This document shows positions 488 through 33,199 of a DNA stretch of 42,476 bases, one piece after another (position 1 is the first letter of the stretch; each line of letters starts with the position of its first letter). The DNA is from Escherichia phage forsur: the sequence record MN850617.1; one strand, 5' to 3'. A model generated the notes under the pieces. That model did no database searches and was not told the origin of the DNA. It saw only the letters and a list, made by a program, of their open reading frames with translations. The translations under genes and the position numbers were made by a program.

Positions 488-708
488 GTAGAACCCTGTA
501 CCAAGAAGATGTGGTGCAGCTCAAAGATGACGGCCTCTCGATAGACTGGGAGGCCAACACGCAGGTCGAGCTGTACAAAGATGGCACCGTCTGTATCTCG
601 CAGGAAGGGGAGCAGGTGTGGGTGCCGTGGGCATATGTCAAAGATATTATCTTCGCTCTTGAGGAAGCACACGATGCACATGAAAGACACCGTAGTAGTA
701 GACCTTGA
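484..708 (+). CDS. hypothetical protein (74 aa)
   Basis: ORF-track ORF. GTG start overlaps the upstream stop, with GGAG adjacent. No recognisable motif. Confidence 0.45.
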   Translation: MSRTLYQEDVVQLKDDGLSIDWEANTQVELYKDGTVCISQEGEQVWVPWAYVKDIIFALEEAHDAHERHRSSRP

Positions 709-1890: not shown

Positions 1891-2124
1891 ATGAGCAGAT
1901 ACCAACGAGCCATTGAGGATACCGTGGTCGAGAAAGGTGTGTGCGGGGAGTGCCACGGCTGTGGCACATTCACCAGCATGACCATTCGACACGAGCTTGT
2001 CCAAACTGAATGTGAAGCCTGTGGTGGCACAGGCGTGACTGACCCGGCACTGCAACGTTCAGTGCTGCGGGAACAAGGTATGCGCTGCCAAGTGCAGCCG
2101 GGCTATGACCAACCAACGGAGTAA
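1891..2124 (+). CDS. DnaJ-type zinc-finger protein (77 aa)
   Basis: AGGAG 5 nt upstream of ATG 1891. Two CxxCxGxG motifs (CGECHGCG, CEACGGTG). Confidence 0.65.
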   Translation: MSRYQRAIEDTVVEKGVCGECHGCGTFTSMTIRHELVQTECEACGGTGVTDPALQRSVLREQGMRCQVQPGYDQPTE

Positions 2125-4559
2125 TGATGGACTTACTTGCTGAGCAGATTCGACTGGAAGAAGAAGCGCGAGCCAGACACCGCGAGGGCTGGCTGGATAA
2201 TATCAGAGAGGCGTTGGCCGCTGGCCGGGCTGGTTCAGTACCATTGCTCCAGCGTATGATGGTTGAGGCGTATCCTCAAGTTGAAGCTGCGATGCAAGAA
2301 CTCCTGAATGAAACTGCCCGTGGCTATGGTGCGCAGTACCGGACATACATGCGGGAGCTGGGGCCGCGAGCTTGTGCCTCACTCGCGTTGAGCATGGCTG
2401 TGTCCGGTGCCGCTGCTGAGCAAGCAGTGCTTAACTTGCTCAAGGACATGGGCAAGGCTCTCATGGCTGAGGTGGTGTACCTTCGGGCCAAGGCTGCCGG
2501 GCCTGTGCAGGCTGCGTACATGGCCAAGGTTAAGACTGACGTTAAGCGCTCTCGTTCCAAGTCAGCTAACCATGTGTATAACAAGGCGAAAGCGTCGGCG
2601 TCTAACGTTGGCGTTGAGCTGGATATCCTGCCACAGCGTGCGCTCATCACCATTGGTAAGATGATGATGAAGTGCATCGAGCCTACTGGTCTGCTGGTCA
2701 CTATGCGTGTCGGCGGCAACCACCGTCAGCGCGGCACCGCGCACTTCGCACTGCATGAAGATGTGCTGGCAACGATGAAAGATTGGATGGACTTGCCACG
2801 GGCAGACGGCCTGTGCTGTCCTCCAATGATTATCCCGCCAGCGCAGATTGCACGCGATGGTCGTAGTGGTATGTGGCACTCGCCGGGGCAGGCTGCCATG
2901 TACCGGGCAATCAGCCGCATGAACCACCGTGGCTACCGTGCGCTGGGTGTTGACCCACTGCCCATCATAGAGCCGTGTATGATGCTCAGCAGCGTTCCGT
3001 ACCGAGTTAACCCAATGGTATTGGAGTTCCTGAGAACGAACCGTACAGGCGTTATGGGGCTGCCTGTGCCGCCTCGTGAGCCTAAGCTCCCGTTCACCAT
3101 CCCGGCTGGTGTCAGCTTCGCTCAGTACATTAGCAAGTTCCCACCAGAAATGCAGCAGCAGATGGAGTCGGAAGCCCACGAGTACAAGGTGAAGACCCGT
3201 CTGTATTACAACGAGCTGCGCAAGTTCACGTCACAAATGCTGGCGCTGAACGGTGCAGTCAAAGAGGCCGAGCGCTATGCGCCATACGATAGGGTATATC
3301 TCCCGACTTACGCCGATACGCGGGGCCGAATTTATTATTCTTCGACCCTTAACCCTCAGTCCATCGACGCGGTGCGAGCGCTGCTCGAACTTGCTGAACC
3401 AGTGGCTCTCGGAGACGAGGGGCTGTTCTGGCTCAAGGTACATGTTGCGAATTGTTTTGGATACGACGCCACCGACTTCGACGACCGGGCGGCGTGGACG
3501 GACAAAACACTCCCCCGACTACGTGAGGCGTGCCGTCTTCCAGAGGCATTTGATTCGTTCTGGTCAGAAGCCGATAGCCCTATCTCAGCGTGGGCTGCTG
3601 CTGTTGAACTCATTCGAGCTATCGACTCAGGAAGTCCTGAGACTTATCCCTGCCGAGTGGTTACGCAGTGGGACGCTACATGTTCAGGACTCCAGCACCT
3701 CAGTGCGATGCTACGCGATGAGGTTGGAGGTGCTGCTGTCAATCTTGTCGATAGCGTGGGAAGAAAAGCAGACATATATCTTAAGACGGCAGCAGCGGCG
3801 ATGCAGGCTCTTGAAGAAAGTGAAGCGGCTGCGCCGACGACAATGGGTTCGTGGCTTGTTTCCATCGGCATTGTTCGGGCTATGGCCAAGAAGCCAGTGA
3901 TGACCTACGTGTACGGGGCAACCCGGCACGGCATGGTTGACTACTACTGCCTGTATCTGCGTGAGAACCGGGTCAAGCTGCCGGAGGGTAAGAGCCTGCT
4001 GGAGTGTGCTCAGTTCATTGCTGAGTTTATGTGGGCTGCTATCCCCCGCGTCGTGCCGAAAGCTGCCGAGCTGATGGCATGGTTGCAGGCTATCGCAGTA
4101 GAGGCTGCGAGCATGGGTGAGTACGTGGAGTTCACTGCGCCGTCCGGTCTTCGTGTGGTCAATCTGTATCAGGCCAGCAAAGAGATTGCGCTGAACAACA
4201 TCAACCTCATGGGTATCCACGGCATCAAGCTGCGCGAGTATCTGGATAAGCCAGATGGTCGCAAGTGTGCCGCTGCGATTGCTCCGAATTTTGTACACGC
4301 CATGGATGCCAGTCACATGATGAAGGTTCTGTGGGAGATGTGGAATAACGGGGTATACATGGTATCCATCCACGACTCGTTCGGTGTAGCGGCAGCCCAT
4401 GCTGGGTTACTGCACAAGGTCATCCGTGAAAAGTTTGTGCAGATGTATGAGGAATGTGACCCTATTCAGCAACTTGCGTCAGCATATAACCGTGAAGCTC
4501 CAGCTCGCGGTAATCTGGACATCCAGCTTGTGAAGAAATCAAGCAAGTTCTTCTGCTGA
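2124..4559 (+). CDS. T7-like single-subunit DNA-dependent RNA polymerase (811 aa)
   Basis: KKPVMTYVYGATRHG (motif B-like) and SIHDSFG (motif C catalytic Asp). Size and position (just before the structural genes) fit phiKMV-type phages. Confidence 0.95.
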   Translation: MMDLLAEQIRLEEEARARHREGWLDNIREALAAGRAGSVPLLQRMMVEAYPQVEAAMQELLNETARGYGAQYRTYMRELGPRACASLALSMAVSGAAAEQAVLNLLKDMGKALMAEVVYLRAKAAGPVQAAYMAKVKTDVKRSRSKSANHVYNKAKASASNVGVELDILPQRALITIGKMMMKCIEPTGLLVTMRVGGNHRQRGTAHFALHEDVLATMKDWMDLPRADGLCCPPMIIPPAQIARDGRSGMWHSPGQAAMYRAISRMNHRGYRALGVDPLPIIEPCMMLSSVPYRVNPMVLEFLRTNRTGVMGLPVPPREPKLPFTIPAGVSFAQYISKFPPEMQQQMESEAHEYKVKTRLYYNELRKFTSQMLALNGAVKEAERYAPYDRVYLPTYADTRGRIYYSSTLNPQSIDAVRALLELAEPVALGDEGLFWLKVHVANCFGYDATDFDDRAAWTDKTLPRLREACRLPEAFDSFWSEADSPISAWAAAVELIRAIDSGSPETYPCRVVTQWDATCSGLQHLSAMLRDEVGGAAVNLVDSVGRKADIYLKTAAAAMQALEESEAAAPTTMGSWLVSIGIVRAMAKKPVMTYVYGATRHGMVDYYCLYLRENRVKLPEGKSLLECAQFIAEFMWAAIPRVVPKAAELMAWLQAIAVEAASMGEYVEFTAPSGLRVVNLYQASKEIALNNINLMGIHGIKLREYLDKPDGRKCAAAIAPNFVHAMDASHMMKVLWEMWNNGVYMVSIHDSFGVAAAHAGLLHKVIREKFVQMYEECDPIQQLASAYNREAPARGNLDIQLVKKSSKFFC

Positions 4560-4584
4560 ATAAAGCATTGTATTCCTTGCTTAT

Positions 4585-4607
4585 TTATGAAAGTGACTAT
4601 AGTGATA
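4585..4607 (+). promoter_or_regulatory. phage-RNAP promoter candidate P1 (TTATGAAAGTGACTATA|GTGATA)
   Basis: 23-nt motif with T7/SP6-like architecture (AT-rich -17..-13, CTATA at -5..-1, G at +1 = 4602). It lies in the gap after the RNAP gene at the head of the late operon. A perfect inverted copy is at 26463..26485 and near copies at 4852 and 33177. Confidence 0.6.
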
Positions 4608-4666
4608 GAATCACGCTACCGGTAGCCCCGTCAGTGGCGGGGGTGCTGCCACTCAGAGAGGATTGT

Positions 4667-4852
4667 ATGGGTAAAGAATCTCCATTAGATAGAGTAACAT
4701 TCACTAAAGCTCAGATAGCTCTACTGGAAAAGCACTTCGGTACATGGGTACAGGTAGGCAGAACAGTAACACCTGACACTAACCTACCACTGATTAACAG
4801 AGAAGCTGGTAAGCAGGATGTACTGGACTTCATCCGTGAAAGAGTGATTTGA
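4667..4852 (+). CDS. hypothetical protein (61 aa)
   Basis: Start trimmed to ATG 4667 (GAGAGG upstream). The track's TTG start at 4568 lies upstream of the predicted transcription start. Confidence 0.55.
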   Translation: MGKESPLDRVTFTKAQIALLEKHFGTWVQVGRTVTPDTNLPLINREAGKQDVLDFIRERVI

Positions 4853-4874
4853 AATGAAAGTGACTATTATGGGA
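4852..4874 (+). promoter_or_regulatory. weaker phage-promoter-like copy P2 (AAATGAAAGTGACTATT|ATGGGA)
   Basis: 14-nt identity (ATGAAAGTGACTAT) to P1, but -1/+1 diverge. It overlaps the start of the GNAT gene. Confidence 0.3.
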
Positions 4875-5273
4875 AATACAACGCACACGACTATGCCTCT
4901 TGACATTCGGCGTGCGGTGGCCGAGGGCATACAAGCCGAGCGGCCATGGTCAGACCTATCTCCCGATGTGATAGTCGAACGCATGTACGAGGCCACTGCC
5001 GCTGGTTGCGTTGACGTTTACATTACTGCCGACGACGATGGCCTCATGGCTGTTGCTCACATCGGCAGGTTATTCGATATTCATGTGGGCGAGATGGTGG
5101 TCATTATGGCCTCATACGTCTGGCCCCAGTACAGAAACCGTGGAGTGATGCGTGCCATCCTCCGTGTACTCAAAGACGTGGCCCGTTCCGAGGGTGTACG
5201 TTGGTGCGGTTACTCCCACATGGTGCGGCCTTACGTTCAGGAGTACCGCTTCATAGATTTGGAGAAACCGTAA
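4854..5273 (+). CDS. GNAT-family N-acetyltransferase (139 aa; alternative start 4869)
   Basis: VWPQYRNRGVMRAILRVL matches GNAT motif A (R-x-x-G-x-G/A acetyl-CoA loop), preceded by a beta-strand-rich segment. Confidence 0.7.
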   Translation: MKVTIMGNTTHTTMPLDIRRAVAEGIQAERPWSDLSPDVIVERMYEATAAGCVDVYITADDDGLMAVAHIGRLFDIHVGEMVVIMASYVWPQYRNRGVMRAILRVLKDVARSEGVRWCGYSHMVRPYVQEYRFIDLEKP

Positions 5274-5533
5274 TGGGTAGCGTAGGTAAAGTTTTCAAGG
5301 GGATTGGCTCGGTCTTTGGACTAGGTAGCCAGAAACCCCAGTACACGATTAAGACTGACCCGAATCAGGTCAAGGCTGAAACCTTGAATGCAAACTTGCA
5401 GGCTGATTTGGCGAACGATAACACCCCGACGATTCAGGCAGGTGGTCAGGTTACTTCGGCCTCCGACACTTTATCGAGCCGACGCCGCCGCACCGGAACG
5501 GGTGTAGCAAGCAACCTCGGCATCGGGAGTTAA
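5273..5533 (+). CDS. hypothetical small protein upstream of portal (86 aa), possibly virion-associated
   Basis: Start trimmed to ATG 5273 (GGAGAAACCGTAATG, overlapping the upstream stop). Gly/Ser-rich with a basic C-terminus. Confidence 0.55.
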   Translation: MGSVGKVFKGIGSVFGLGSQKPQYTIKTDPNQVKAETLNANLQADLANDNTPTIQAGGQVTSASDTLSSRRRRTGTGVASNLGIGS

Positions 5534-5536
5534 CGA

Positions 5537-7102
5537 ATGGCATACGACGCGCAGAACGTCAGCTATGAATCGCTCTGGCAAAAGTACCGGGACAGTAACG
5601 TAGTCACCAAGGCTCGTGAGTACAGTCGTTACACGTTGGCCAAGCTGGTCAGTGAATACGACCGCGCCGAGGTAGACGACATGAACCGCCAGCAGATTAC
5701 TCGTGACTACCAATCTGTCGGCGCTCTGCTCGTTAACAACCTCGTCGCTCGACTGGGTGAGTTCCTGTTCCCGGCATCAGCCCGGTTCGTAAAGCTGAAA
5801 CTCGATAAGGTGTCTGACCAACAGCGGCAGCAAATGTCCAAGGTCAATCAGGCACTCATCACTATTGAAAAGGGCATCGTAGACAAAGCCAAAGAGAACG
5901 GCGGCTACGCTGACCTGTTAATGACCATTGCCCAACAAGCAGTCACTGGTAACGCCGCGCTGTACCGCGATATGGAAACTGGAACGTACCGAGTGTACGG
6001 GCTGGAATCCTTCGTGGTGCAGCGCGACGGTCGTGGCGTTGTTACGGACGCCGTGGTCAAAGAACGCATCCAGTGGGATTCCCTCGACAAAGCGTTTCAG
6101 GACATGCTGAACGCCAAGGGCTTCCGCTGTGGTGGTAACAAACGTGTGTGGCTGTACACTCGCGTCCTCCGGGTTAGGAAGGACAGTGGGCTGTATGGCT
6201 ATGAAGTAACGCAGCAGGTGGGCAACTACCAAGGCTGTGTCTACACCCCCGGTAAAGATTACTACCCTGAAAAAGTCTGCCCTTGGATTTTCCCAGTGTG
6301 GTCTTTGAAGTCTGGCGAGCATTATGGTCGCGGGATTGTCGAAGACCACGCTGGGGATTTCGCACGTCTGTCGATGCTGTCTGAGCACTCTGCTCTGTAC
6401 ATGCAAGAGGCGCTGCGTGTCCTGTGGATGCTGACTGGTTCTGGCGGCAACGTCGATGACATTGAATCCGCGCAGACTGGGCAGGTCGTACCTCTCCAGA
6501 ATGGCACCACGCTGTCTGGTCTTGAGGTCGGGGATTACCAGAAAGTTCAACAGGCCCGTGACGAAATTAACCAGATTGTGCAGCGACTCGCGCAGGCGTT
6601 CATGTACACTGGTGAGTTCCGTGACTCGGAGCGTACCACCGCAACCGAAGTGCAGCAGGTAGCAACCAGCGCCGAACGTGGGCTGGGTGGCCCGTACTCA
6701 ATGCAGGCAAAGACCCTCCAGATTCCTCTGGCATACGTCTTGCTCGCAGAGATTGACGAGTCCTCCGTACCTGACATTGTGGGCGATATCCTGACGCTTC
6801 AAGTTGAAGCTGGTCTGGATGCCCTCGGTCGCAGCATCGAAGCTGAGACGCTGATTCGTGCGCTCTCTGATTCGCAGGCAGCAATGGTTGCTGTCCAAAA
6901 CATTAACGGCGTTGCCAACGTCATTGACCCTCAGAAGGTCATTGAGGTTATCTTCGCTTCCAACGGCGTCGCGCTTGATGACTATCGTAAGTCAGCGCAA
7001 GACCTCGCAAATGAAGGTCAGCAAATCGACAGAGCAGCAGCCGCTGCCGCAGGCGTACAGCCGGGCGCAGTCGATGTAGCGCCGAACGTCGCTCAGATTT
7101 AA
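5537..7102 (+). CDS. head-tail connector (portal) protein, T7 gp8-like (521 aa)
   Basis: Segments align by eye with T7 gp8 as I recall it (SFVVQRDGRG.. vs SYVVQRDAFG..; GEHYGRGIVEDHAGDF vs GESYGRSYIEEYLGDL; ERTTATEVQQVA..LQIPLAYVLL vs ERVTAEEIRYVA..LQLPLVRVLL). Confidence 0.93.
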   Translation: MAYDAQNVSYESLWQKYRDSNVVTKAREYSRYTLAKLVSEYDRAEVDDMNRQQITRDYQSVGALLVNNLVARLGEFLFPASARFVKLKLDKVSDQQRQQMSKVNQALITIEKGIVDKAKENGGYADLLMTIAQQAVTGNAALYRDMETGTYRVYGLESFVVQRDGRGVVTDAVVKERIQWDSLDKAFQDMLNAKGFRCGGNKRVWLYTRVLRVRKDSGLYGYEVTQQVGNYQGCVYTPGKDYYPEKVCPWIFPVWSLKSGEHYGRGIVEDHAGDFARLSMLSEHSALYMQEALRVLWMLTGSGGNVDDIESAQTGQVVPLQNGTTLSGLEVGDYQKVQQARDEINQIVQRLAQAFMYTGEFRDSERTTATEVQQVATSAERGLGGPYSMQAKTLQIPLAYVLLAEIDESSVPDIVGDILTLQVEAGLDALGRSIEAETLIRALSDSQAAMVAVQNINGVANVIDPQKVIEVIFASNGVALDDYRKSAQDLANEGQQIDRAAAAAAGVQPGAVDVAPNVAQI

Positions 7103-7114
7103 TTTGGAGATTAC

Positions 7115-8347
7115 ATGTCTGGTGAATACCAACCTACTGCCGCACCCGCTCCCCAAAACGTACCCGCTGGCCCGACCTATTCTCCCTCTGGTCACGGCGG
7201 TAATGATTATGGTGGAAGCCCACAGGTGGTACAGAACCCAGCGCTCGGACGCTTAGGCACGCCGATTGAACTGCCGCGAGGTGGTGCAACTCCGCAGCCG
7301 CAACAGCCGTTCGGTCAACAGCCGGGCCTGATTCCAAATCAGGAGTACAACCCGTATGCCCAACCGCAGCAGGGAAACCCAAGCCCTTACGCACCCGTAC
7401 CTCAGCAGAACCCGTATGGTGCTCCGCAACCGCAAAGCCCGTTTGCGGCACCACCTATTCCGATTAATGGGTATCCGCAACAGGGCTACACGCCTCCGGG
7501 CCAAGCGGCTCCGGCACAGCAGCCGGGCTTAGCACCGAACAACCCTGCGTATGGCTTCAACCCGTATGGGCAGCAGCCTCAGCAGCAGCAGCCGCAACAG
7601 CAGGCACCTCAGCAGCCGCAGCAGCCTTTCCAGCAGTTGCAGCCGCAGCCGGGCCAGCCGCCTCAGCAGTTCCAGAATCCGAACCTAACGGCAGAGAATC
7701 TGGCAAAGCAGGAAGGTGGACTGACCGCTGACCAAGTGGCTCAGATTTTCCCGGATGAAACCAGTCGTGCTGTGTTCCAAGGTATGGACACCATCGCCCG
7801 TGGCCAGAACATCGACCTGCTTGCAGCGTTCGGTTCTGCATACGAGCGTCGTGACCCTACTCTGGTGAATGAGCGCTATCTGGCGCAGTTCGACCCACAG
7901 ACTGTATCCATCCTCAAAGGTCAATTCGGCGCACTGGTTGCCGCTGGTCAGCAGCGCGATGCTGCAATCGAACAGCAGGTTTACCAGATGGCTGGTGGCC
8001 AAGAGCGTTGGGGTCTGGCAGTGCAGGCATTCAATACCGCTGCCGACAAAGGCACGATTGATGCTGTAGTAGCGGCTGTGAACTCCGGCGACCCTAATCA
8101 GGTACGTCTGGCAGTGAACACCATTCTCCAGTTTGCTGGTTCCCAAGGGAATATGATTCAGCGTTCTGGACAAAGTTTGACGCCTAATGGTGGCGGTCAA
8201 GCACCTCGTGACGTTATGACTAACGAGGCATTCCGTCAGCATCTTGGCTGGCTTGAGCAGGCGCATCCTGTTGGTTCCCCGGAATACAACAAGCATTACG
8301 CCGTACTGGTAGAGCAGCGCCGTCAGGCCAAAGCTCAAGGTTACTAA
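7115..8347 (+). CDS. scaffolding protein with a long N-terminal P/Q/N/Y-rich low-complexity region (410 aa)
   Basis: Lies between the portal and major capsid genes, as T7 gp9 does. The C-terminal half is helical and Ala/Gln-rich. Confidence 0.7.
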   Translation: MSGEYQPTAAPAPQNVPAGPTYSPSGHGGNDYGGSPQVVQNPALGRLGTPIELPRGGATPQPQQPFGQQPGLIPNQEYNPYAQPQQGNPSPYAPVPQQNPYGAPQPQSPFAAPPIPINGYPQQGYTPPGQAAPAQQPGLAPNNPAYGFNPYGQQPQQQQPQQQAPQQPQQPFQQLQPQPGQPPQQFQNPNLTAENLAKQEGGLTADQVAQIFPDETSRAVFQGMDTIARGQNIDLLAAFGSAYERRDPTLVNERYLAQFDPQTVSILKGQFGALVAAGQQRDAAIEQQVYQMAGGQERWGLAVQAFNTAADKGTIDAVVAAVNSGDPNQVRLAVNTILQFAGSQGNMIQRSGQSLTPNGGGQAPRDVMTNEAFRQHLGWLEQAHPVGSPEYNKHYAVLVEQRRQAKAQGY

Positions 8348-8368
8348 TTTCTTTCGTAAGGATTTCCC

Positions 8369-9361
8369 ATGGCCGACAACTACTATCAGCCGAATCAGTT
8401 CCGTCCACACTGGGGTGGTGCGAACTCTGATAACGACATTCACCTTGAGGTGTATGACCGTGATGTGCAGACCCAGTTCATCTACAACTCCATCTTCCGC
8501 AGCGGCCTGACCAACTTCAAGTCTGTTGCGAACCAGTCCAACACTTGGCGTGGCGACCGTCTCGGCTCCGTGTCTGTGAAGGGCCGTAAGTCTGGTCAGT
8601 CTCTGGACAACCAGCCAGTTCGCTCTGAGAAGCTGATTGTCACTGTGGATACCGTGTCTTACATCCGTATCCCGATTGACTATCAGGACGACTGGACTGC
8701 GCCGGACTTCCGTGCTGAGCTGACCCGTAACATGGGTACTGCACAGGCGAAAGCGTTCGACCAAGCGCACGTCATCCAGCTCCAGAAGTCTGCTGACTTC
8801 GTTCCTCCGACCTCTCTGGCAGGCGCGTTCAACTCCGGTATCAAGGAGAAAGTAACGCTGACTGGCACCGTGGCTTCTGAGGAAGACGATGCAAGCGCAC
8901 TGGTGCATGGTCACAAGAAAGTCATTGAGGCGTTCATTCGCCGCGACGCCGACCTTGGCCGTCTGGTAACGCTGATTGACCCGGCGTGGTTCAGCATCCT
9001 GCTGGAGCACAAGAAACTGATGAACGTTGAGTTCACTGGTGGTCGTGGTGTGAACGACTTCGCTATGCGTCGTGTTGCTTACGTGAACGGTATCCGTATC
9101 ATCGAGAGCAACGCATTCCCGCAGGCAGCAATCACCAACCACATCCTCGGTGCCGACTTCAACGTCACCGCCGAAGAAATCAAGCGTAAGATGATTATCT
9201 TCGACCCGTCTCTGGCTCTGGTCACTGTCGAAGCCCAACCGCTATTCAACCGCGTGTGGGATGACGAACGTGAACTGACCAACGTTCTGGACAGCTTCCA
9301 CATGTACACCGTGGGTCAGCGTCGTCCTGACGTGGTAGGCGTGGTTACTACCGAAGCCTAA
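8369..9361 (+). CDS. major capsid protein, T7 gp10-like (330 aa)
   Basis: Position and size fit. Block similarity to T7 gp10A as recalled (EKLIVTVDTVSY..DYQDDW vs EKVITIDGLL..DIEDAM; C-terminal YTVGQRRPDVVGVV vs YAMGHGGLRPEAAGAVV). Confidence 0.9.
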   Translation: MADNYYQPNQFRPHWGGANSDNDIHLEVYDRDVQTQFIYNSIFRSGLTNFKSVANQSNTWRGDRLGSVSVKGRKSGQSLDNQPVRSEKLIVTVDTVSYIRIPIDYQDDWTAPDFRAELTRNMGTAQAKAFDQAHVIQLQKSADFVPPTSLAGAFNSGIKEKVTLTGTVASEEDDASALVHGHKKVIEAFIRRDADLGRLVTLIDPAWFSILLEHKKLMNVEFTGGRGVNDFAMRRVAYVNGIRIIESNAFPQAAITNHILGADFNVTAEEIKRKMIIFDPSLALVTVEAQPLFNRVWDDERELTNVLDSFHMYTVGQRRPDVVGVVTTEA

Positions 9362-9371
9362 TGGTAAACTC

Positions 9372-9400
9372 GAAGCCCTTCATTGAGGGGCTTCTATGAT
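9372..9400 (+). terminator. stem-loop terminator candidate after the capsid gene (T7 T-phi analogue by position)
   Basis: GAAGCCC-TTCATTGA-GGGGCTTC hairpin (9372..9394) followed by TATGAT, immediately after the capsid stop. Confidence 0.5.
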
Positions 9401-9427
9401 TATCGTTACTCACCCAAAGGAGGGTGC

Positions 9428-9616
9428 ATGAAAGTCATTGTTGCTGATAACGCTGGTGTTTCCTACCACATACCTGAGAGTCACATCTTCTGCTACTACG
9501 CAGATGCCACTGACCCTACGAAGACCACCGTTGTCCACGCAGCGAACGGCACGCAAATCTACAAGAGCACCTTCGACGGTACGCCTGCGGATTTGGATGC
9601 CATACTTACCAGTTAA
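9428..9616 (+). CDS. hypothetical protein (62 aa)
   Basis: Start trimmed to ATG 9428 (AAGGAGGG upstream). Confidence 0.5.
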   Translation: MKVIVADNAGVSYHIPESHIFCYYADATDPTKTTVVHAANGTQIYKSTFDGTPADLDAILTS

Positions 9617-9628
9617 TGGAGACATGCT

Positions 9629-10177
9629 GTGACTCTACTCGAAGCAGTTAACATTGTTCTTCGGGCATTGTCTGAGCACACCGTATCATCCACAGAGATT
9701 CGTAACCCGTCCGTCACGCTTGCCCTTGACAAGATTAACGTGGCGACGGAGGAAGTTCTCACTGATGGCTGGTGGTTCAACAATATCCGAATCACCATTC
9801 CACGCGAGTCGGATGGTCGAGTCAAATATCCCGCAGACGCACTGAGCTTCATCCCCGATGGGTTTGAGTGTATTGTGCGAGGCGGGTATCTTTACAACGC
9901 GCAATCCCAAACCTTTGTTTTTACTGAGGATGTTCCGGGATTGGTTACTTATGATTTGGGGTGGGATGACCTACCGAGTCCTGTTCAACGACTCATTGCA
10001 TATCAAGCAGCTATCTCAGCTTACGCCGACGACATTGGGGATAACCCTCCGGCCAGCGTGACAGGCGGCTATGCCATGGCGTTGCAGCAGTGCCAGTCAA
10101 TCCATACCCGTCAACGTCGATTCAATGCACGCCAGCGTCAGAGCTGGTGGCGATATGAGAGTGCTCGGAGAGGATAA
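9629..10177 (+). CDS. tail tubular protein A, T7 gp11-like (182 aa)
   Basis: GTG start with GGAG 8 nt upstream. The N-terminus aligns with T7 gp11 as recalled (AVNIVLRALSE..LDKINVATEEVLTDGWWFN vs AVNDILASIGE..LNKINRQIQSRGWTFN). Confidence 0.88.
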   Translation: MTLLEAVNIVLRALSEHTVSSTEIRNPSVTLALDKINVATEEVLTDGWWFNNIRITIPRESDGRVKYPADALSFIPDGFECIVRGGYLYNAQSQTFVFTEDVPGLVTYDLGWDDLPSPVQRLIAYQAAISAYADDIGDNPPASVTGGYAMALQQCQSIHTRQRRFNARQRQSWWRYESARRG

Positions 10178-12621: not shown

Positions 12622-12623
12622 AT

Positions 12624-13358
12624 ATGGGTTGGGCAGCTTTTGCTAAAGCTGGTGCCGACGCCACGAACTCTTTCATCACCACCTATGCTCAAGGACGAGC
12701 AGAGCGTGCGCAGATGAAAGCTGTGCAGGCAGAGAACGAACGCCTGAACAAGCAGACGTGGCAGGCAATGGGCCAGCGCATCAACACCGTCAATCTCCAG
12801 CGTGGCCTACTCCGGCAGCAAACTGGCACCGACCTGTACAACATCAACAAGGAAGCTAACCGGGCAGCAGGTGCCAGCATCAACAACGCCGCCGCCGCTG
12901 GTATTGAAGGTGCATCGGTTGACGAATCAGTCAACGATATCAGTCGTCAGAATCAGGAAAGCCAAGCGCAGACCCGGTTCAATGAGCAGATTCAGGAGAT
13001 GAATCTGGACACGAGCATTGAGGATATTGTGAACACGGCAGTCGCCGCACAGCGATACTCTCAGAAACCTGCAAGCAACAGCATGATTGTTGGCCGCGCC
13101 ATCGGCGTGTCTGCAATGCAGTTCGCTTCCAGCCTCGCGCAGACCAGCTTCGACTACATGCCTACTGAGGGTGCCAAAGGCACAGGTACTCAGGGTGGTA
13201 GCGGATTGGGCGGCCTGTCCGGGAATACTGGTGCGAGCACGGTTCAGCTCGGTACTACCAATTGGATGCAGAAAGCTGGGGAATTTGACCCGGTTCCTGC
13301 TCAGTACAGTTCTAATCGCTACACGGGCTACAGCTCCGGTAGCTTGTTTGGGGGCTAA
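12624..13358 (+). CDS. internal virion protein A (244 aa)
   Basis: First of three genes between tail tubular B and the tail fiber, as in T7 gp14-16 / phiKMV gp35-37. Gln/Ala/Gly-rich. Confidence 0.65.
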   Translation: MGWAAFAKAGADATNSFITTYAQGRAERAQMKAVQAENERLNKQTWQAMGQRINTVNLQRGLLRQQTGTDLYNINKEANRAAGASINNAAAAGIEGASVDESVNDISRQNQESQAQTRFNEQIQEMNLDTSIEDIVNTAVAAQRYSQKPASNSMIVGRAIGVSAMQFASSLAQTSFDYMPTEGAKGTGTQGGSGLGGLSGNTGASTVQLGTTNWMQKAGEFDPVPAQYSSNRYTGYSSGSLFGG

Positions 13359-13360
13359 TC

Positions 13361-16057: not shown

Positions 16058-19000
16058 TTACACAAGAATCGCTCGACAAGTTCATGGCTCCCAAGCAGGG
16101 GGCCAACGCCCCTACGCTGGTGATTCCAGCTCCCGTAAAAGCTGAGACGCTCAGCACTCCACTGCAAGACGCCACTCGTCAGGGTGCCGTTGAGCAGTTT
16201 GATAAGATGCAGGAACTGGAAGCGACACCAATCGCCACGGCTTTGAGCGCTTCTGTGAAGAACTGGGATACCACTCAGCTCTTTGATGCGGCACTCAACA
16301 AGCCTGTGTTTCAGGCTGACCCGAACTTCCACCCGAACGAGGCATTGCAGAATGTCCAGTTCCCGGTGACTGAGGATGACCGCACATTCCTGTTCAAGTC
16401 CAAATCAATGGACGAGTTCAACTGGCGTACACAGCAGCTCCAAGAGATGCGCGAACGTACCCAGTTGGCTCACACTGCGCCAGTGATGAACGCAGTGCTG
16501 CAATTCGCTGACCCGCTGTACCTCGCCACTGACCTGCTCTCGATGGGAGCAGGCACTGCCCTGAAACTTGGTCGCCTCGGAACCGCCGCTGTCGGTGCAG
16601 CTTCAACTGCTGCCACTATGACAGCGGTGGGTAACGAAGCACGCCCAGTGTCTCAGAACGAGATTATCTTTGCGGCTGCCCTGCACGGGGCGGCCACCAC
16701 TGCATTCTATCGCCCCGCCGCTGCGCCAGCCCGTCGCCTTGATGAGCTGTCGCCGGAGGAATTTGCGGCAGAGATGCAGCGCCGTAACGGTATTGACCCG
16801 AACAACCCTCCGCAGTTCGACCCGAACAATGCCATGTCTCCGCTGGCAATGTCACTGGGCTTCGGGCGTCGCGGTGCCATGGAGACTGACGAGGTTCCTG
16901 AATCCATCCGGGCTGCGGCTCAGCGTGGACTCGACCTCGCTCGCCGTGGTGAGCAGACCAACCCTAAGCGTCCATTCCTTGAGTGGTCACTGTTCAAGTC
17001 GTTCAGTCAGCATTCTGACGAAGCCAGTGCTCTGGCCGGGCGTCTGCTGGATGACCCGCTGAATCCGAACATGACCTCTGCTGCTGCAATCCAGCGCGAG
17101 ACTCAGGCTCGCTTCGGTGTGCTGCTGAACCAGTATGAAGACACCCTGCGTAACGCCCTGACCACTGATGGCTGGAGTAACCTCCGGCGCTTCCGTGACC
17201 CGGTAGGCTATCGCCGGGCGCAGCAGGAGTTCGAGGCTGCTGTTCGTCTTGAGCTGGACAAGCGCATGATTGACAACAACTTCCGTGGCGCTAACCCGAA
17301 TGTGGCCGCTGCCGCCGACCGACTGGGCGAATACTCTCGCGCCGTGGGCCGGGAGCTGGAACGCAAGGGGATGGTTGAGCCGGGCTTCGTGGAGAAGAAC
17401 CCGTACTACTACCCTCGCCGGATGAACGTGACCAAGATTGAGCAGGCTGAGCAGTTGCTCGGTAAGAAGCCATTCATGAAGCAGATGACGACTGCTGTGC
17501 AGCGCGGCATCGGTACTGACCGACCGACTGCCAACGTCATTGCCCATGCCATGGTAGAGCGTGCTCGCCGTAAGGGTTACGGTATTGACAACTCCGGTAT
17601 GATTATCAACAAGGAGGGCCGCGATGAGCTGCTCGAAATCATTGAGAACTCGAAAGGACTCGACGAGGCTGCCAAGGCCCGTGCTTCCGCACTCCTTCGT
17701 GAATCTGGCTCGGACGCTGGCCGACCGTCGATGCTCAAGAGTCGTATCAACATCGACATGATGCACCAGCTCGGCCCTAACTTGCAGGTGCGTGACCTAT
17801 TCGACGACAGCATCACCAGCATGATGGATGCGTACAACCGCCGCATTACCGGGCGACTGGCTCTGCATGAAGCTGGACTGGGTACTGACGCCGAACGCGC
17901 TGCTGCTCGTGAGGCTCTGGCCAAATCCATCAAGGATGGTACGGCTCGTCGTCAGGCGCTGGAGCAGTATGACAACATCATGGCTTATTATCAGGGTGCT
18001 CCGGTCGGTGAGGAAATGCCGCAGTTCATGCGCCAGCTCTCAGCACTGACTCAGGCTACTGGTCTGGCTGCATCCGGTCTGTGGCAGTTGGTGGAATACG
18101 GCACGATGATGCAACGTTTTGGGGCGGTCAATACATTTCGCGCCATGATGCGCACAATCCCGGAAGCACGCGCATTATTTAAGCAGATGAGAGTGACTAC
18201 TAAGGAAGGTCGTCAGTTGGCCTTGGATGCTGAGGAAGCTCTGACTGCTGCGGTGGCGAGCGATATTCGTATGCGTCCAATCATGCAGCACTATGACGAC
18301 ATGTTCTCTGCTGACAAGTCACCGTGGGTTATGCGTCTTGAGCACGCCCGTGACGCCACGATGTTCATCAACATGCAGAAATACATCCACTTCCACCAGA
18401 CTCGAACCAACGCAGCTCTCGTGATGCAGACGCTGCGCAAGGCAGCAGAAGGTGATGCCAAGGCTATTGCCGCGATGAAAACCTATGGTGCCAATGATGC
18501 GCTGCTGGCTGATATCCGTAAGCAGGTTGCCAAGTCCGGCACCAAGCCGGATGCGTGGGATGAGGGTGTGTTCAACCGTACCCGCATCGTCATGATTAAC
18601 GCCATGGATGACGCTATTGTTCGCGCCCGTGTGGGCGAGCTGCCTGCATTCGCAGAGTTCAGTACCCTCGGTAAGTTCCTGTTTACGTTCCGTCGATTCG
18701 TCGCGGCTACGCACAACAAGACTCTGGTTGGTACTTGGAATCGTGAGGGTGCCCGTGGCATGGCTACGCTCATGGCGTACCAGTATCCGCTGGCGATGAT
18801 GGCCACCGCTGCCAACAACGTGATTTCCGGTAAAGCATTCTCTGACCCGGAAACCATGGCACCTAACAAGCTGGCTAGTCAAGCGCTGAATTACCTTGGT
18901 GCTATCGGCTTTGCCTCTGAGTTCACTGGTGTCCTGACTGGTCAGCAGCGTAGCTTCGGTGCGCCGGGGCTGCTGTTCCTTGACCGCGCTTATGGTGTGG

Positions 19001-19161
19001 CGGGTGCAGCTACCAGCGCTGCTGGCGGCGTGCTGACTGGCGATACCGAGCAGGCAGTGTCCGGCGCTCGTAAAGCGGCAGGTAACATCATCCAAGCTAT
19101 CCCACTCATCTCAATCGTGCCGGGCGTCCGAGCACTCAACGAAGCAGTTAAGGGTGAATAA
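16054..19161 (+). CDS. internal virion (core/ejection) protein C, T7 gp16 analogue (1035 aa)
   Basis: Largest gene of the internal-protein trio. ATGA overlap with the upstream gene. Hydrophobic Ala/Gly-rich segments. Confidence 0.78.
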   Translation: MITQESLDKFMAPKQGANAPTLVIPAPVKAETLSTPLQDATRQGAVEQFDKMQELEATPIATALSASVKNWDTTQLFDAALNKPVFQADPNFHPNEALQNVQFPVTEDDRTFLFKSKSMDEFNWRTQQLQEMRERTQLAHTAPVMNAVLQFADPLYLATDLLSMGAGTALKLGRLGTAAVGAASTAATMTAVGNEARPVSQNEIIFAAALHGAATTAFYRPAAAPARRLDELSPEEFAAEMQRRNGIDPNNPPQFDPNNAMSPLAMSLGFGRRGAMETDEVPESIRAAAQRGLDLARRGEQTNPKRPFLEWSLFKSFSQHSDEASALAGRLLDDPLNPNMTSAAAIQRETQARFGVLLNQYEDTLRNALTTDGWSNLRRFRDPVGYRRAQQEFEAAVRLELDKRMIDNNFRGANPNVAAAADRLGEYSRAVGRELERKGMVEPGFVEKNPYYYPRRMNVTKIEQAEQLLGKKPFMKQMTTAVQRGIGTDRPTANVIAHAMVERARRKGYGIDNSGMIINKEGRDELLEIIENSKGLDEAAKARASALLRESGSDAGRPSMLKSRINIDMMHQLGPNLQVRDLFDDSITSMMDAYNRRITGRLALHEAGLGTDAERAAAREALAKSIKDGTARRQALEQYDNIMAYYQGAPVGEEMPQFMRQLSALTQATGLAASGLWQLVEYGTMMQRFGAVNTFRAMMRTIPEARALFKQMRVTTKEGRQLALDAEEALTAAVASDIRMRPIMQHYDDMFSADKSPWVMRLEHARDATMFINMQKYIHFHQTRTNAALVMQTLRKAAEGDAKAIAAMKTYGANDALLADIRKQVAKSGTKPDAWDEGVFNRTRIVMINAMDDAIVRARVGELPAFAEFSTLGKFLFTFRRFVAATHNKTLVGTWNREGARGMATLMAYQYPLAMMATAANNVISGKAFSDPETMAPNKLASQALNYLGAIGFASEFTGVLTGQQRSFGAPGLLFLDRAYGVAGAATSAAGGVLTGDTEQAVSGARKAAGNIIQAIPLISIVPGVRALNEAVKGE

Positions 19162-25900: not shown

Positions 25901-25930
25901 GCCGTGGGTGCAATACCCCGGCTTGAAAAT
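25901..25930 (+). terminator. stem-loop after the last late gene (weak terminator candidate)
   Basis: GCCGtGGG-TGCAATA-CCCCGGC (25901..25922) followed by TTGAAAATTG. Confidence 0.35.
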
Positions 25931-25939
25931 TGAACGTTT

Positions 25940-26455
25940 ATGCGTGGGCCTCCCTCGACCCGAATGACCGCGCGTACCCCCATGACGTGTGCGCGGATTA
26001 GCCTCGCGACGTGCGCGATATTGCTCGCGTGCGCTGCGCGGCGCGTCAAGAGGATTGCCTGCGTGCGGTATAGCTCGTGCGTGTCGCGTTTCATCGTCTG
26101 CCGTGTGGCGTGCTGTGCGCTGTCCTGCTGGCTGTGCTGTGCGGTGCTGTCCTATGGGGACGCTCTGCGCTGGCTGTGCTGTGCTGCGTGCTGCGCTCGG
26201 TCGGGCGGGTATCTGTCTCTTTTGCCGTGGTACGCTCTGCGCCGTGGTGGTGCTGTGTGGTGGTGGTGCTGCCGTGGTGCTGTCCTGTCTGCTGGTCTAC
26301 TGTCTGCGCCGCCAGCTCTGCGCGTCATGCTCTGCTACCTGCTGCTACTGTCCTACTGCGTTCACTGGCTGCCGCCTGTCATCCTGTCGGATTCCATCCG
26401 TTGCCGTTCCGCGCTCGCTTGTTTCGGCTGCGCCGCGCTCGCTCTGCGTATCTAG
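25940..26455. repeat. GC-rich, A-depleted (+ strand) low-complexity tract with short degenerate direct repeats; probable location of the collapsed terminal repeat / concatemer junction
   Basis: By hand count there are about 15 A in 26101..26450, with A-free runs of 53, 50 and 66 nt. Recurring GCTGTGCTGTGC, GGTGCTGTCCTG, GCCGTGGT and CGCTCTGCGC units. Confidence 0.7.
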
Positions 26456-26462
26456 CGATACA

Positions 26463-26485
26463 TATCACTATAGTCACTTTCATAA
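26463..26485 (-). promoter_or_regulatory. phage-RNAP promoter candidate P3, inverted (leftward) perfect copy of P1
   Basis: The reverse complement of 26463..26485 equals TTATGAAAGTGACTATAGTGATA, identical to 4585..4607. Predicted +1 is the G complementary to 26468, transcribing toward 25940. Confidence 0.5.
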
Positions 26486-26622
26486 TTATCTATTGATATC
26501 AGTAACTTATAACCTATCTGATAACGGTATCTATCCTATGCAATAACCTATTCAATCAAATATTTATTCCTAATGATTACAGTAACTTATCCACTATTTG
26601 AGCTATTCAGTGAAAATAAATC

Positions 26623-26892: not shown

Positions 26893-26944
26893 ACGCTCCA
26901 GATTGACAGGGCAAGCAAGCCTGACAGTCAGTAGTAAAAAGTAG

Positions 26945-33142: not shown

Positions 33143-33176
33143 CCATCTACTCATGCCAGTTATTATTTAGCTGGCA

Positions 33177-33199
33177 TTATGAAGGTGACTATATTGGAC
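33177..33199 (+). promoter_or_regulatory. phage-RNAP promoter candidate P4 (TTATGAAGGTGACTATA|TTGGAC)
   Basis: 16 of 17 identity to P1 over -17..-1. Intergenic, at the head of the replication module. Directly preceded by the hairpin ATGCCAG-(11 nt)-CTGGCAT (33153..33177). Confidence 0.55.

What the first reader, a model, noticed from the sequence alone, without database searches (positions are those of the whole stretch)
4585..4607. T7/SP6-style promoter family TTATGAARGTGACTATA defining the late and replication operons
Seen in sequence: the copies are 4585 (+, after the RNAP gene), 33177 (+, one mismatch, before the replication module), 4852 (+, weaker) and 26485 (-).

Eleven of the 17 upstream positions match the T7 consensus TAATACGACTCACTATA when aligned on CTATA. 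P1 and P3 also have G at +1, and both transcripts begin with a small 5' hairpin (P1: GTGAT-AGA-ATCAC).

Inference: phiKMV-type phages are generally described as lacking a strongly conserved phage promoter, so a crisp T7-like consensus combined with phiKMV-like gene order is notable. It also gives a testable promoter for this RNAP.
Basis: partly seen in the sequence, partly recalled or inferred. Interest (0 to 1): 0.5.

Follow-up and report, generated by a model that had tools for sequence, protein, structure and literature searches.

The report
Phage RNA polymerase promoter family
The repeated 17-base motif is almost certainly the promoter read by this phage's own RNA polymerase. That is ordinary for this virus family, but promoter and polymerase have changed together in close relatives, and a chromosomal island in E. 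coli carries the same promoters.

Summary
TTATGAARGTGACTATA occurs exactly at 4585(+), 33177(+) and 26485(-), with a weaker copy at 4852(+); 0.06 matches are expected by chance. I found a fifth copy at 18185(+), inside an internal-virion-protein gene.

The window is a circularly permuted Bonnellvirus genome, 97.9% identical to Escherichia phage glasur. In ten relatives the copies sit at the same sites. In the four lineages tested, all five copies change together: GTGACTATA here, GCTACTATA in usur and Kc261, GTGTCTATA in megetsur and altidsur. J8-65 has its own variant, GTAACTGTA. None of the other 25 GTGACT hexamers in the window does this. The RNA polymerase specificity loop changes in parallel. 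This is strong indirect evidence for promoters of the phage polymerase.

The novelty claim is overstated. LIMEzero's GenBank record already annotates two syntenic phage promoters. LUZ19 transcriptomics mapped a similar layout: two promoters after the polymerase gene, one among the structural genes, one antisense at the left end.

So this is a new member of a known kind. It also supplies a natural set of closely related polymerase–promoter pairs.

In passing, I found a 15-kb E. coli tRNA-Leu island. It carries this promoter, a bonnellvirus-like capsid gene and terminus-like sequences, so it may be a satellite.

The parts
4585..4607 (+). P1, a consensus promoter (-17 to +6: TTATGAAAGTGACTATAGTGATA). 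It starts 26 nt after the stop codon of the RNA polymerase gene and lies ahead of the late (structural) genes. The predicted start is G at 4602.
   Evidence: Exact match. The site is syntenic in all bonnellviruses and changes in concert with the other copies. LIMEzero annotates a phage promoter at the same place.
4602..4614 (+). Small 5' stem-loop (GTGAT-AGA-ATCAC) at the predicted start of the P1 transcript.
   Evidence: Visible in the sequence. A stem is kept with different sequences in relatives. Folding energy is not significant.
4852..4868 (+). P4, a weaker promoter copy (AAATGAAAGTGACTATT). It overlaps the stop codon of gene 4667-4852 and the start codon and first codons of the GNAT-like gene 4854-5273 (MKVTI...).
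   Evidence: Three mismatches. It changes in concert in every lineage, at the cost of amino-acid changes: MKVTI, MKATT, MKVST, MKVSV. Pfam assigns the gene to GNAT. LIMEzero has the equivalent copy on the ATG of ORF36.
18185..18201 (+). P5, an internal weaker promoter copy (AGATGAGAGTGACTACT) inside internal-virion-protein gene 16054-19161. It lies about 1 kb upstream of the tailspike, terminase and lysis genes.
   Evidence: Five mismatches to the consensus. Its GTGACT changes to GCTACT in usur and Kc261 and to GTGTCT in megetsur and altidsur, exactly like the four other copies, changing the protein from QMRVTTK to QMRATTK or QMRVSTK. It is analogous to LUZ19 P009.
26463..26485 (-). P(-), a consensus promoter on the minus strand, identical to P1 from -17 to +6. 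It fires leftward toward the inferred terminal repeat and left genome end. It is the counterpart of the LUZ19 antisense promoter P001.
   Evidence: Exact match. Conserved in all bonnellviruses and in LIMEzero at 652(-). In J8-65 it lies at 534-550(-), 275 nt inside the annotated 259-bp terminal repeat. LUZ19 P001 is described in PMC10914365.
33177..33193 (+). P2, a promoter (TTATGAAGGTGACTATA, with T at +1). It lies ahead of the small gene 33214-33381 and of the primase, helicase and DNA-polymerase genes, which run on to the RNA polymerase gene.
   Evidence: Match. Syntenic and changing in concert. LIMEzero annotates a phage promoter at the equivalent site, 7294-7313, preceded by a terminator.
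33153..33177 (+). Stem-loop (ATGCCAG-N11-CTGGCAT) abutting P2. It probably marks the 3' end of the early, host-transcribed unit.
   Evidence: Visible in the sequence. There is a compensatory change in megetsur and altidsur (ATGCCTG...CAGGCAT) and a different 7-bp stem in J8-65 and Lidtsur. LIMEzero annotates a terminator at this place.
2124..4559 (+). Gene for the 811-aa single-subunit RNA polymerase, the presumed reader of the motif.
   Evidence: Pfam PF00940, E 7.7e-84. T7 RNA polymerase structures match at E 5e-57. It is 99.8% identical to the glasur polymerase.
4182..4238 (+). Specificity loop of the polymerase, residues 687-705 (EIALNNINLMGIHGIKLRE). T7 R746, N748, Q754, R756 and Q758 align with N692, N694, G700, K702 and R704.
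   Evidence: Alignment to T7. The loop differs between promoter lineages: ESPM-HLHLMGVHQIKLRE, ETMLNNINLMGIHSIKLRE, ETTM-GIKLMGVHAIKLRE. Against usur it is the most diverged 20-aa stretch of the protein, hypergeometric P = 4.8e-5.
25955..26223 (+). Target region of P(-). It holds the inferred left genome terminus (TCGACCCG at 25955), the inferred terminal repeat (about 25955-26199) and the conserved TATCTGTCTCTTTT (26210-26223) just beyond the repeat. The region is GT-rich and non-coding.
   Evidence: Alignment with the annotated ends of J8-65. Indels that are not multiples of three separate the window from 97.9%-identical glasur. The motif is unique in the window. T7 class II signals share ATCTGTT in the non-template strand, and one lies at the concatemer junction (bioRxiv 10.1101/2021.01.11.426313).

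Best explanation
The motif is the promoter of this bonnellvirus's own T7-type single-subunit RNA polymerase (gene 2124-4559).

There are five copies. Three match the consensus: P1 at 4585, P2 at 33177 and P(-) at 26485. Two weaker copies lie in coding sequence: P4 at 4852 and P5 at 18185.

Inferred programme:
- Host RNA polymerase starts at three sigma-70-type promoters near 26727-26973 and transcribes the early genes, and by read-through the replication module and the polymerase gene.
- The phage polymerase then re-initiates at P2, which boosts replication genes and its own gene.
- P1 and P4 drive the late structural genes.
- P5 gives an extra start ahead of the tailspike, terminase and lysis genes.
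- P(-) sends transcripts leftward through the terminal repeat and, in concatemers, across the junction.

Recognition follows the T7 scheme. TTATG (-17 to -13) is the upstream AT-rich contact. Positions -9 to -5 are read by the specificity loop. CTATA|G is the melting and initiation region.

What is shown: the copies, their conservation at the same sites, their concerted change, and the parallel change in the loop. What is inferred: the start sites, the relative strengths, the temporal programme, and which loop residue reads which base.
For: 1. The motif is far above chance.

2. The genome encodes a T7-family polymerase.

3. All five sites are syntenic in glasur, ROV85, RZ4, usur, Kc261, megetsur and altidsur. 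Most are also present in J8-65, Lidtsur and LIMEzero.

4. Concerted evolution. Of the 30 GTGACT hexamers in the window, exactly the five motif copies become GCTACT in usur and Kc261 and GTGTCT in megetsur and altidsur. The other 25 do not. In P4 and P5 this costs amino-acid changes.

5. The polymerase specificity loop, aligned to T7 R746-Q758, differs between the promoter lineages, while the whole polymerases are about 90% identical. Against usur it is the most diverged 20-aa stretch, P = 4.8e-5.

6. The 3' half, ACTATAG, is identical to the T7, SP6 and K11 initiation region.

7. LIMEzero's record annotates phage promoters at the P1 and P2 sites.

8. LUZ19 start-site mapping shows two promoters after the polymerase gene, one in the structural region and one antisense at the left end (PMC10914365).
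Against: - There are no transcription data for any bonnellvirus, so no start site is known.
- P2 has T and P4 has A at the position where T7-type polymerases usually start with G.
- P4 and P5 lie in coding sequence and have 3 and 5 mismatches to the consensus.
- For megetsur the loop differs at only 3 residues and is not the most diverged part of the protein.
- Residue-to-base assignments rest on alignment to T7, at about 30% identity and covering only the C-terminal half.
- The 5' hairpins are not statistically supported.
Confidence: 0.88

Rival explanations
1. The motif is the binding or cutting site of some other phage factor rather than a promoter. Candidates are a replication or packaging protein, a regulator, or a site-specific nick like those described in phiKMV relatives.
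For: The KP34-like genus paper raised site-specific nicks as an alternative reading for a conserved motif (PMC4411677). One copy sits next to the genome end, and two lie in coding sequence.
Against: The co-varying protein segment is precisely the polymerase loop that determines promoter specificity in T7. The ACTATAG half equals the T7/SP6 initiation region. P1 and P2 lie in intergenic gaps at operon starts. The layout matches promoters mapped by start-site sequencing in LUZ19.
Confidence: 0.05
2. This rival concerns the role of P(-) only. P(-) would be mainly a transcriptional roadblock. Its antisense transcription would collide with late rightward read-through across the concatemer junction and keep it out of the early genes. 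This is the hypothesis proposed for LUZ19 P001.
For: PMC10914365 proposes this for LUZ19. P(-) faces the end of the late operon, and no conserved ORF lies downstream of it.
Against: A separate conserved sequence resembling a T7 class II pause or termination signal (TATCTGTCTCTTTT, 26210-26223) already lies in the rightward orientation just past the inferred terminal repeat. It could do that job. P(-) plus about 135 nt downstream is kept at 94.5% identity in an E. coli island whose other shared DNA is much more diverged (capsid gene about 68%). That conservation suggests a cis-acting replication or packaging element, as with T7 origin promoters. The two roles are not exclusive.
Confidence: 0.3
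3. The repeats reflect protein-level or duplication history, for example a recurring MKVT-type N-terminal peptide, and have no role in transcription.
For: P4 and P5 encode M-K/R-V-T. A similar ATGAAGGTATCTACTAAGGAG occurs in the island.
Against: P1, P2 and P(-) are intergenic, and P(-) is on the other strand. Flanking sequence is not shared between copies. The nucleotide changes are concerted even where they alter the protein.
Confidence: 0.01

Closest known systems
Putative phage-specific promoters annotated in Pantoea phage LIMEzero (NC_015585; Waewaevirus)
   Same: LIMEzero has a related polymerase (70% identical) and the same gene order. Promoters are annotated at the two equivalent sites: right after the polymerase gene, and before the primase gene following a terminator. 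It shares the TTAT.AAAG 5' half. I also found unannotated copies on the ATG of ORF36 and on the minus strand at the left end.
   Different: The LIMEzero core is GGCAAGCACTA(A/T)G, which resembles T3's CACTAA and is two bases longer. Its specificity loop differs (RLNLLGVHAIQLRE). Only 2 of its 4 copies are annotated.
Phage-specific promoters of Pseudomonas phage LUZ19 and other Phikmvvirus species (ONT-cappable-seq, PMC10914365)
   Same: There are few promoters. Two lie directly after the polymerase gene, one lies in the structural region, and one is antisense near the left end with transcripts running toward the right end. The layout is conserved across the genus. The TTATG element is shared.
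   Different: The LUZ19 motif is GgtTATGTCACacACAnnGG, with no CTATAG. The polymerases are only about 31% identical. No pre-replication promoter like P2 was reported for LUZ19. The LUZ19 sites are experimentally mapped, whereas these are not.
T7, SP6 and K11 promoters, with the T7 class II / class III distinction
   Same: The element spans -17 to +6 and has an identical ACTATAG initiation region. It matches T7 at 11 of 17 positions. Its specificity region co-varies with the polymerase specificity loop. Consensus copies (P1 and P(-), identical to +6) coexist with divergent copies (P2, P4, P5). From my own knowledge, this resembles T7 class III versus class II promoters.
   Different: There are only 5 copies, against 17 or more in T7. 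The polymerase gene sits at the end of the middle region, not among the early genes. Positions -13 to -7 differ. T7 has no leftward promoter at its left end; its phiOL promoter fires rightward (own knowledge).
Experimentally defined promoters of KP34 (TAATGTTACAGGAGTA|GGG) and Dev-CD-23823 (AATGTATACCCCTATATACAC)
   Same: These polymerases come from phages with phiKMV-like gene order. The promoters share (T/A)ATG at the 5' end. CD23823 shares the ATG-N7-CTATA skeleton.
   Different: The cores differ. The polymerases are about 31-32% identical. CD23823 starts at an A. The related cronosvirus Kc318 has five plus-strand copies of TGAATTGGCACCCCTATAG.

Membership tests
Promoters of T7-supergroup single-subunit RNA polymerases | A cognate single-subunit RNA polymerase gene lies in the same genome. 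| tested here: met
   Gene 2124-4559: PF00940 at E 7.7e-84; T7 RNA polymerase chains at E 5e-57.
Promoters of T7-supergroup single-subunit RNA polymerases | There are several near-identical copies of an element about 17-23 bp long, well above chance. | tested here: met
   Four matches against 0.06 expected. P1 and P(-) are identical over 23 nt. A fifth copy was found by co-variation.
Promoters of T7-supergroup single-subunit RNA polymerases | The element has three parts: an AT-rich upstream part, a specificity part (about -12 to -5), and a TATA-like initiation part followed by a purine at +1. | tested here: met
   TTATG / AAAGTGAC / TATA|G, with 11 of 17 matches to T7 and ACTATAG identical. 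The purine at +1 holds for P1, P(-), P4 and P5, but not for P2, which has T.
Promoters of T7-supergroup single-subunit RNA polymerases | The promoter specificity region co-varies with the polymerase specificity loop. | tested here: met
   GTGA, GCTA, GTGT and GTAA promoter lineages correspond to loops with N692/N694/G700, H/H/Q, N/N/S and G/K/A at the aligned positions.
Promoters of T7-supergroup single-subunit RNA polymerases | The cognate polymerase initiates transcription at +1. | not testable with these tools
   This needs 5'-end mapping or in vitro transcription.
phiKMV-like promoter layout (as mapped in LUZ19) | There are two promoters directly downstream of the polymerase gene, one in the structural region, and one antisense near the left end. 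| tested here: met
   4585 and 4852; 18185; 26485(-).
phiKMV-like promoter layout (as mapped in LUZ19) | The sequence motif is GgtTATGTCACacACAnnGG. | tested here: not met
   Only TTATG is shared. This is the same layout but not the same promoter family.
T7 class II pause/termination signal at the concatemer junction (for 26210-26223) | ATCTGTT lies in the non-template strand, is followed by a T-run, and sits just beyond the terminal repeat. | tested here: inconclusive
   The window has TATCTGTC+TCTTTT, matching 6 of 7. J8-65 and Lidtsur have ATCTATC. The position is about 10 nt past the repeat boundary inferred from J8-65. Whether this polymerase responds to it cannot be tested here.
Phage satellite (PICI-like), for the E. 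coli tRNA-Leu island | The element is integrative, with an integrase and att repeats. It is about one third of the helper genome in size and lacks a full virion gene set. | tested here: met
   A tyrosine integrase is present. tRNA-Leu 3'-end repeats lie 15,061 bp apart, against a 42.5-kb phage. The only recognisable virion gene is a capsid homologue.
Phage satellite (PICI-like), for the E. coli tRNA-Leu island | A helper phage induces the element and packages it. | not testable with these tools
   Indirect evidence only: bonnellvirus-type promoters, and sequence homologous to both sides of the phage terminal region.

The most novel reading that the evidence does not exclude
The rapid switching of promoter and polymerase specificity among bonnellviruses is driven by an arms race with a chromosomal satellite or defence island that the helper's own RNA polymerase switches on.

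The island is 15 kb, sits at tRNA-Leu, and occurs in about 1% of complete E. coli genomes, including EPEC E2348/69. It has no polymerase gene. It carries:
- a perfect leftward P(-)-type promoter plus its downstream 135 nt;
- an upstream array of three rightward promoter-like sites, whose specificity triplets (GCTA, GTAT or GTGT, GTGA or GCAT) cover the known bonnellvirus polymerase types;
- a bonnellvirus-like capsid gene;
- the sequence found at the phage's inferred terminase cut site.

If this reading is right, it would be a satellite of an Autographiviridae phage that senses its helper through promoter mimicry. P(-) would then be a cis-acting replication or packaging element.
Probability: 0.3. 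Interest if true: 0.8.

Novelty: new member of a known kind. Interest (0 to 1): 0.42.

Why it matters
- Regulatory map. This gives genus Bonnellvirus a promoter map. The two genus papers I could read do not mention promoters.
- Transcription programme. It points to a five-promoter programme that parallels the one mapped in LUZ19.
- Orthogonal pairs. The genus holds at least three or four polymerases that are about 90% identical, or 76% for J8-65. Their promoters differ only at -8, -7 and -6 and their specificity loops differ at a handful of residues. This natural experiment can be tested directly as orthogonal polymerase–promoter pairs, and it can be used to read the loop-to-base recognition code outside T7.
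- Left-end element. P(-), the terminal repeat and the class II-like signal together offer a handle on how phiKMV-type phages insulate, replicate or package across the concatemer junction.
- The island. If it proves to be a satellite triggered by the helper's polymerase, that would matter much more than the promoter annotation.

Tried and rejected
- IMG/VR scan with TTATGAAAGNNNCTATAGTGATA: one contig only, a bonnellvirus fragment.
- Metagenome scan with ATGAARGNNNCTRTAGTGNTA: the pattern was too loose. About 110 of 120 loci are chance matches. It also used the only metagenome scan, so I could not recover polymerase genes for the new GCAT promoter type.
- Search of cronosvirus Kc318 for the validated CD23823 promoter: no match within 6 mismatches. 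Its own family is TGAATTGGCACCCCTATAG.
- RNA folding of the 5' leaders: not distinguishable from shuffled sequence.
- The built-in sigma-70 scan missed the three obvious early promoters (TTGACA-N17-TGTAAT), because it requires A at position 2 of the -10 hexamer.
- The terminator scan found nothing at P1 or P2, because the loop of the P2 hairpin is too long for its rule.
- The LIMEzero paper (PMC3126476) and the supplements of the PhageProm paper are not held. I could not check whether bonnellvirus promoters are listed there.
- Candidates at 4448(+) and 4690(-), each with 5 mismatches: rejected, because they do not co-vary.
- The plus-strand ORF 25940-26455 and the minus-strand ORF annotated as glasur_55: rejected as genes. 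The region has indels that are not multiples of three between near-identical genomes, and it spans the inferred terminal repeat.
- Matches of 12-13 of 17 to lineage consensus sequences are common by chance, about 20 per 27 kb. The island's rightward sites therefore rest on their clustering, their contiguous cores, and variation between island variants concentrated in the triplet. They do not rest on match score.

Full report
**What the window is.** The 42,476-base window is a circularly permuted genome of a Bonnellvirus (Autographiviridae). A 3.9-kb stretch (2124-6000: the polymerase gene and the first late genes) is 97.9% identical in DNA to Escherichia phage glasur. Its length equals that listed for phage forsur in the paper that described these phages (PMC7552041), so it is probably forsur; I could not verify this. 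All genes are on the plus strand.
- The 811-aa single-subunit RNA polymerase is encoded at 2124-4559. Pfam PF00940 matches at E 7.7e-84, and T7 RNA polymerase structures match at E 5e-57.
- The structural, packaging and lysis genes run from 4667 to 25871.
- Three strong sigma-70-type promoters (TTGACA-N17-TGTAAT) lie at 26727-26973.
- The early and replication genes run from about 27.2 kb round to the polymerase gene.

**The observation.** The degenerate 17-mer occurs exactly at 4585(+), 33177(+) and 26469-26485(-), and with three mismatches at 4852(+). Chance gives 0.06.
- The count of 11 of 17 matches to T7 is right.
- G follows TATA only at 4585 and at the minus-strand copy. These two are identical from -17 to +6.
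- The small 5' stem at 4602-4614 exists and is kept in altered form in relatives. It is not statistically supported.

**Comparative evidence.** I fetched ten related genomes: glasur, ROV85, RZ4, usur, Kc261, megetsur, altidsur, J8-65, Lidtsur and LIMEzero. The motif is at the same sites in all of them, and its core differs by lineage:

| Lineage | Promoter core |
|---|---|
| window, glasur, ROV85, RZ4 | GTGACTATA |
| usur, Kc261 | GCTACTATA |
| megetsur, altidsur | GTGTCTATA |
| J8-65 | GTAACTGTA |

Within each genome every copy carries that lineage's variant. This includes the weak copy at 4852, which overlaps the start codon of a GNAT-like gene. Its product changes accordingly: MKVTI, MKATT, MKVST, MKVSV.

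As a control I followed all 30 GTGACT hexamers of the window into usur, Kc261, megetsur and altidsur. Exactly five make the concerted changes, and the other 25 do not. The five are the four known copies and a fifth at 18185-18201. That copy lies inside the internal-virion-protein gene 16054-19161, where the protein changes from QMRVTTK to QMRATTK or QMRVSTK. The other candidates with five mismatches, 4448(+) and 4690(-), do not co-vary.

**The polymerase changes in step.** I aligned the polymerase to T7. T7 R746, N748, Q754, R756 and Q758 correspond to N692, N694, G700, K702 and R704. The loop sequence differs by lineage:

| Lineage | Specificity loop |
|---|---|
| window type | EIALNNINLMGIHGIKLRE |
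| usur, Kc261 | ESPM-HLHLMGVHQIKLRE |
| megetsur, altidsur | ETMLNNINLMGIHSIKLRE |
| J8-65 | ETTM-GIKLMGVHAIKLRE |
| Lidtsur | EAAM-GLNLMGVHGIKIRE |
| LIMEzero | ETSM-RLNLLGVHAIQLRE |

- The whole polymerases of the first three groups are about 90% identical.
- Between the window and usur, this loop is the most diverged 20-residue stretch. It holds 9 of the 82 differences, hypergeometric P = 4.8e-5.
- For megetsur only three loop residues differ, and the loop is not the most diverged part of the protein.
- The invariant K702 and R704 go with the invariant G at -9.

Together with the ACTATAG initiation region shared with T7, SP6 and K11, this makes recognition by the phage polymerase the only well-supported reading. 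Gene conversion between 17-bp copies with unrelated flanks is an unlikely alternative.

**Layout and likely programme.**
- P2 (33177) abuts a conserved stem-loop at 33153-33177. The stem shows a compensatory change in megetsur and altidsur. P2 precedes the replication genes.
- P1 (4585) and P4 (4852) follow the polymerase gene.
- P5 (18185) lies about 1 kb ahead of the tailspike gene.
- P(-) points leftward.

In J8-65 the ends are annotated, with a 259-bp terminal repeat. There P(-) lies at 534-550(-), 275 nt inside the repeat. Aligning the ends places the window's left terminus at about 25955 (TCGACCCG) and the repeat at about 25955-26199. The region from there to P(-) is GT-rich and has indels that are not multiples of three between near-identical genomes. 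It is therefore non-coding, and the ORFs called there are spurious.

Just beyond the inferred repeat lies a conserved TATCTGTCTCTTTT at 26210-26223, unique in the window. It resembles the T7 class II pause/termination signal ATCTGTT, one copy of which lies at the T7 concatemer junction (bioRxiv 10.1101/2021.01.11.426313). Whether this polymerase responds to it is unknown.

**Comparison with what is known.**
- LIMEzero's GenBank record already annotates putative phage promoters at the P1 and P2 sites. I found two more copies there: one on the ATG of ORF36 and one on the minus strand at the left end.
- ONT-cappable-seq of LUZ19 mapped four phage promoters: two after the polymerase gene, one in the structural region, and one antisense at the left end whose transcripts run to the right end. 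Near-identical motifs occur in 15 other Phikmvvirus species (PMC10914365).
- The KP34 and Dev-CD-23823 polymerases have validated promoters.
- A 2025 survey predicted promoters for hundreds of such phages (PMC11880802).

On the other hand, the two bonnellvirus papers I could read never mention promoters. The window's polymerase is only about 31% identical to the LUZ19-type and KP34-type enzymes, and the core sequence differs from theirs. The element is a new member of a known kind. Its 5' half (TTATG) resembles phiKMV and KP34 promoters, and its 3' half is T7-like.

**Seen in passing: a chromosomal island.** A loose metagenome scan returned mostly noise. Ten loci, however, carry the P(-) module with different triplets: GTGA, GTGT, GCTA and a new GCAT.

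These loci are a 15,061-bp island at a tRNA-Leu gene of E. coli. It is bounded by repeats of the tRNA 3' end and carries a tyrosine integrase. It is present in 62 of 5,426 complete genomes, including EPEC E2348/69. It has no polymerase gene. It encodes a small serine recombinase, a DEAD/DEAH helicase, about nine small ORFs, an HNH endonuclease, an endonuclease VII-like protein and an AbiTii protein. It also encodes a major capsid protein whose closest relatives are bonnellvirus capsids, at 54-56% identity.

It shares with the phage:
- P(-) plus about 135 nt downstream, at 94.5% identity, much higher than the capsid gene's roughly 68%;
- the sequence CCGGCTTGAAAA(A)TTG...CCCTCCC|TCGAC, which abuts the inferred phage terminus.

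Upstream of the helicase operon lie three rightward promoter-like sites: TTTTAAAAGCTACTAAT, TAATGAAGGTATCTACT and TTTTGAAAGTGACTATT. Each is followed by AAGG. At the second and third sites the triplets differ between island variants (GTAT to GTGT; GTGA to GCAT or GTAA), with some changes in the flanks as well; the first site is GCTA in every variant.

Matches of 13 of 17 are common by chance. These sites therefore rest on their clustering, their contiguous cores and this pattern of variation, and I regard them as suggestive only.

The island looks like a satellite, or a defence island triggered by the phage polymerase, of bonnellviruses. Two literature searches found no description of such an element. 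It also suggests that P(-) is a cis-acting replication or packaging element, and not only a transcriptional roadblock.

**Verdict.** The interpretation as promoters of the phage polymerase is strongly supported by indirect evidence, with confidence 0.88. The claim of unusualness is not supported. The interest of the finding as given is moderate. The concerted promoter and loop variation, and the island, are the parts worth following up.

Noticed in passing
L133 (E. coli E2348/69, NC_011601.1) about 6074-21192; also L015, L017, L023, L025, L035, L048, L090, L095, L107, L122. Shares window 26348-26510 and 25917-25959.: A 15,061-bp integrative island sits at tRNA-Leu in 62 of 5,426 complete E. 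coli genomes. It has no RNA polymerase gene. It carries a perfect bonnellvirus P(-)-type promoter plus about 135 nt downstream (94.5% identical), three rightward promoter-like sites with different specificity triplets ahead of a helicase operon, a capsid gene closest to bonnellvirus capsids (54-56%), HNH, endonuclease VII-like and AbiTii genes, and the sequence found at the phage's inferred terminus. It is a candidate satellite or polymerase-triggered defence island. Two literature searches found no description.
   Followed up: partly
window 26210-26223 (+): A conserved TATCTGTCTCTTTT lies about 10 nt past the inferred terminal-repeat boundary. J8-65 has TATCTATCTTTTTT there. It resembles the T7 class II pause/termination signal ATCTGTT, one copy of which lies at the T7 concatemer junction. 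It is oriented to stop rightward late transcription before the early region.
   Followed up: partly
window 25940-26455 (+), and the minus-strand ORFs in the same region: The 171-aa ORF here is very probably spurious, as are the genes annotated in relatives (glasur_55 on the minus strand, a Kc261 CDS, Lidtsur gp55). The region is GT-rich and low in complexity, spans the inferred terminal repeat, and has indels that are not multiples of three between 98%-identical genomes.
   Followed up: yes
window 26727-26755, 26864-26892, 26945-26973 (+): Three near-identical host-type early promoters (TTGACA-N17-TGTAAT, each with TG upstream of the -10 hexamer) are conserved in relatives. The built-in sigma-70 scan missed them because of its rule requiring A at position 2.
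   Followed up: partly
window 4869 (+): The predicted start of P4 is the A of an in-frame ATG (ATTATGGGAAAT), five codons into the GNAT-like gene. A transcript from P4 could be a leaderless mRNA for a protein five residues shorter. The ATG is kept in the window, usur and megetsur lineages. J8-65 has GTG there, and Lidtsur and LIMEzero have no start codon.
   Followed up: no
L004 (ROV85) 2435-2459; L005 (RZ4), L008 (megetsur) and L010 (altidsur) at the equivalent place: In several relatives the sequence just upstream of P1 (AATAGTGATATGTATCATTGACTT) repeats the initially transcribed TAGTGATATGTATCA found just downstream of the same promoter. This may be a remnant of a promoter duplication. The window does not have it.
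   Followed up: no
L011 (Kosakonia virus Kc318, Cronosvirus): 11751, 19405, 22854, 34150, 41822 (+), and an inverted copy near 19348-19368: This phage has its own five-copy promoter-like family, TGAATTGGCACCCCTATAG(C/T)AACTAAACG. It is related to the validated Dev-CD-23823 promoter and also ends in CTATAG. A divergent inverted copy lies just after the polymerase gene.
   Followed up: no
L095 7936 (+); L107 (third rightward site): A promoter triplet seen in none of the sequenced bonnellviruses I examined (GCATCTATA) occurs in island variants. This implies a polymerase specificity that has not yet been sampled.
   Followed up: no
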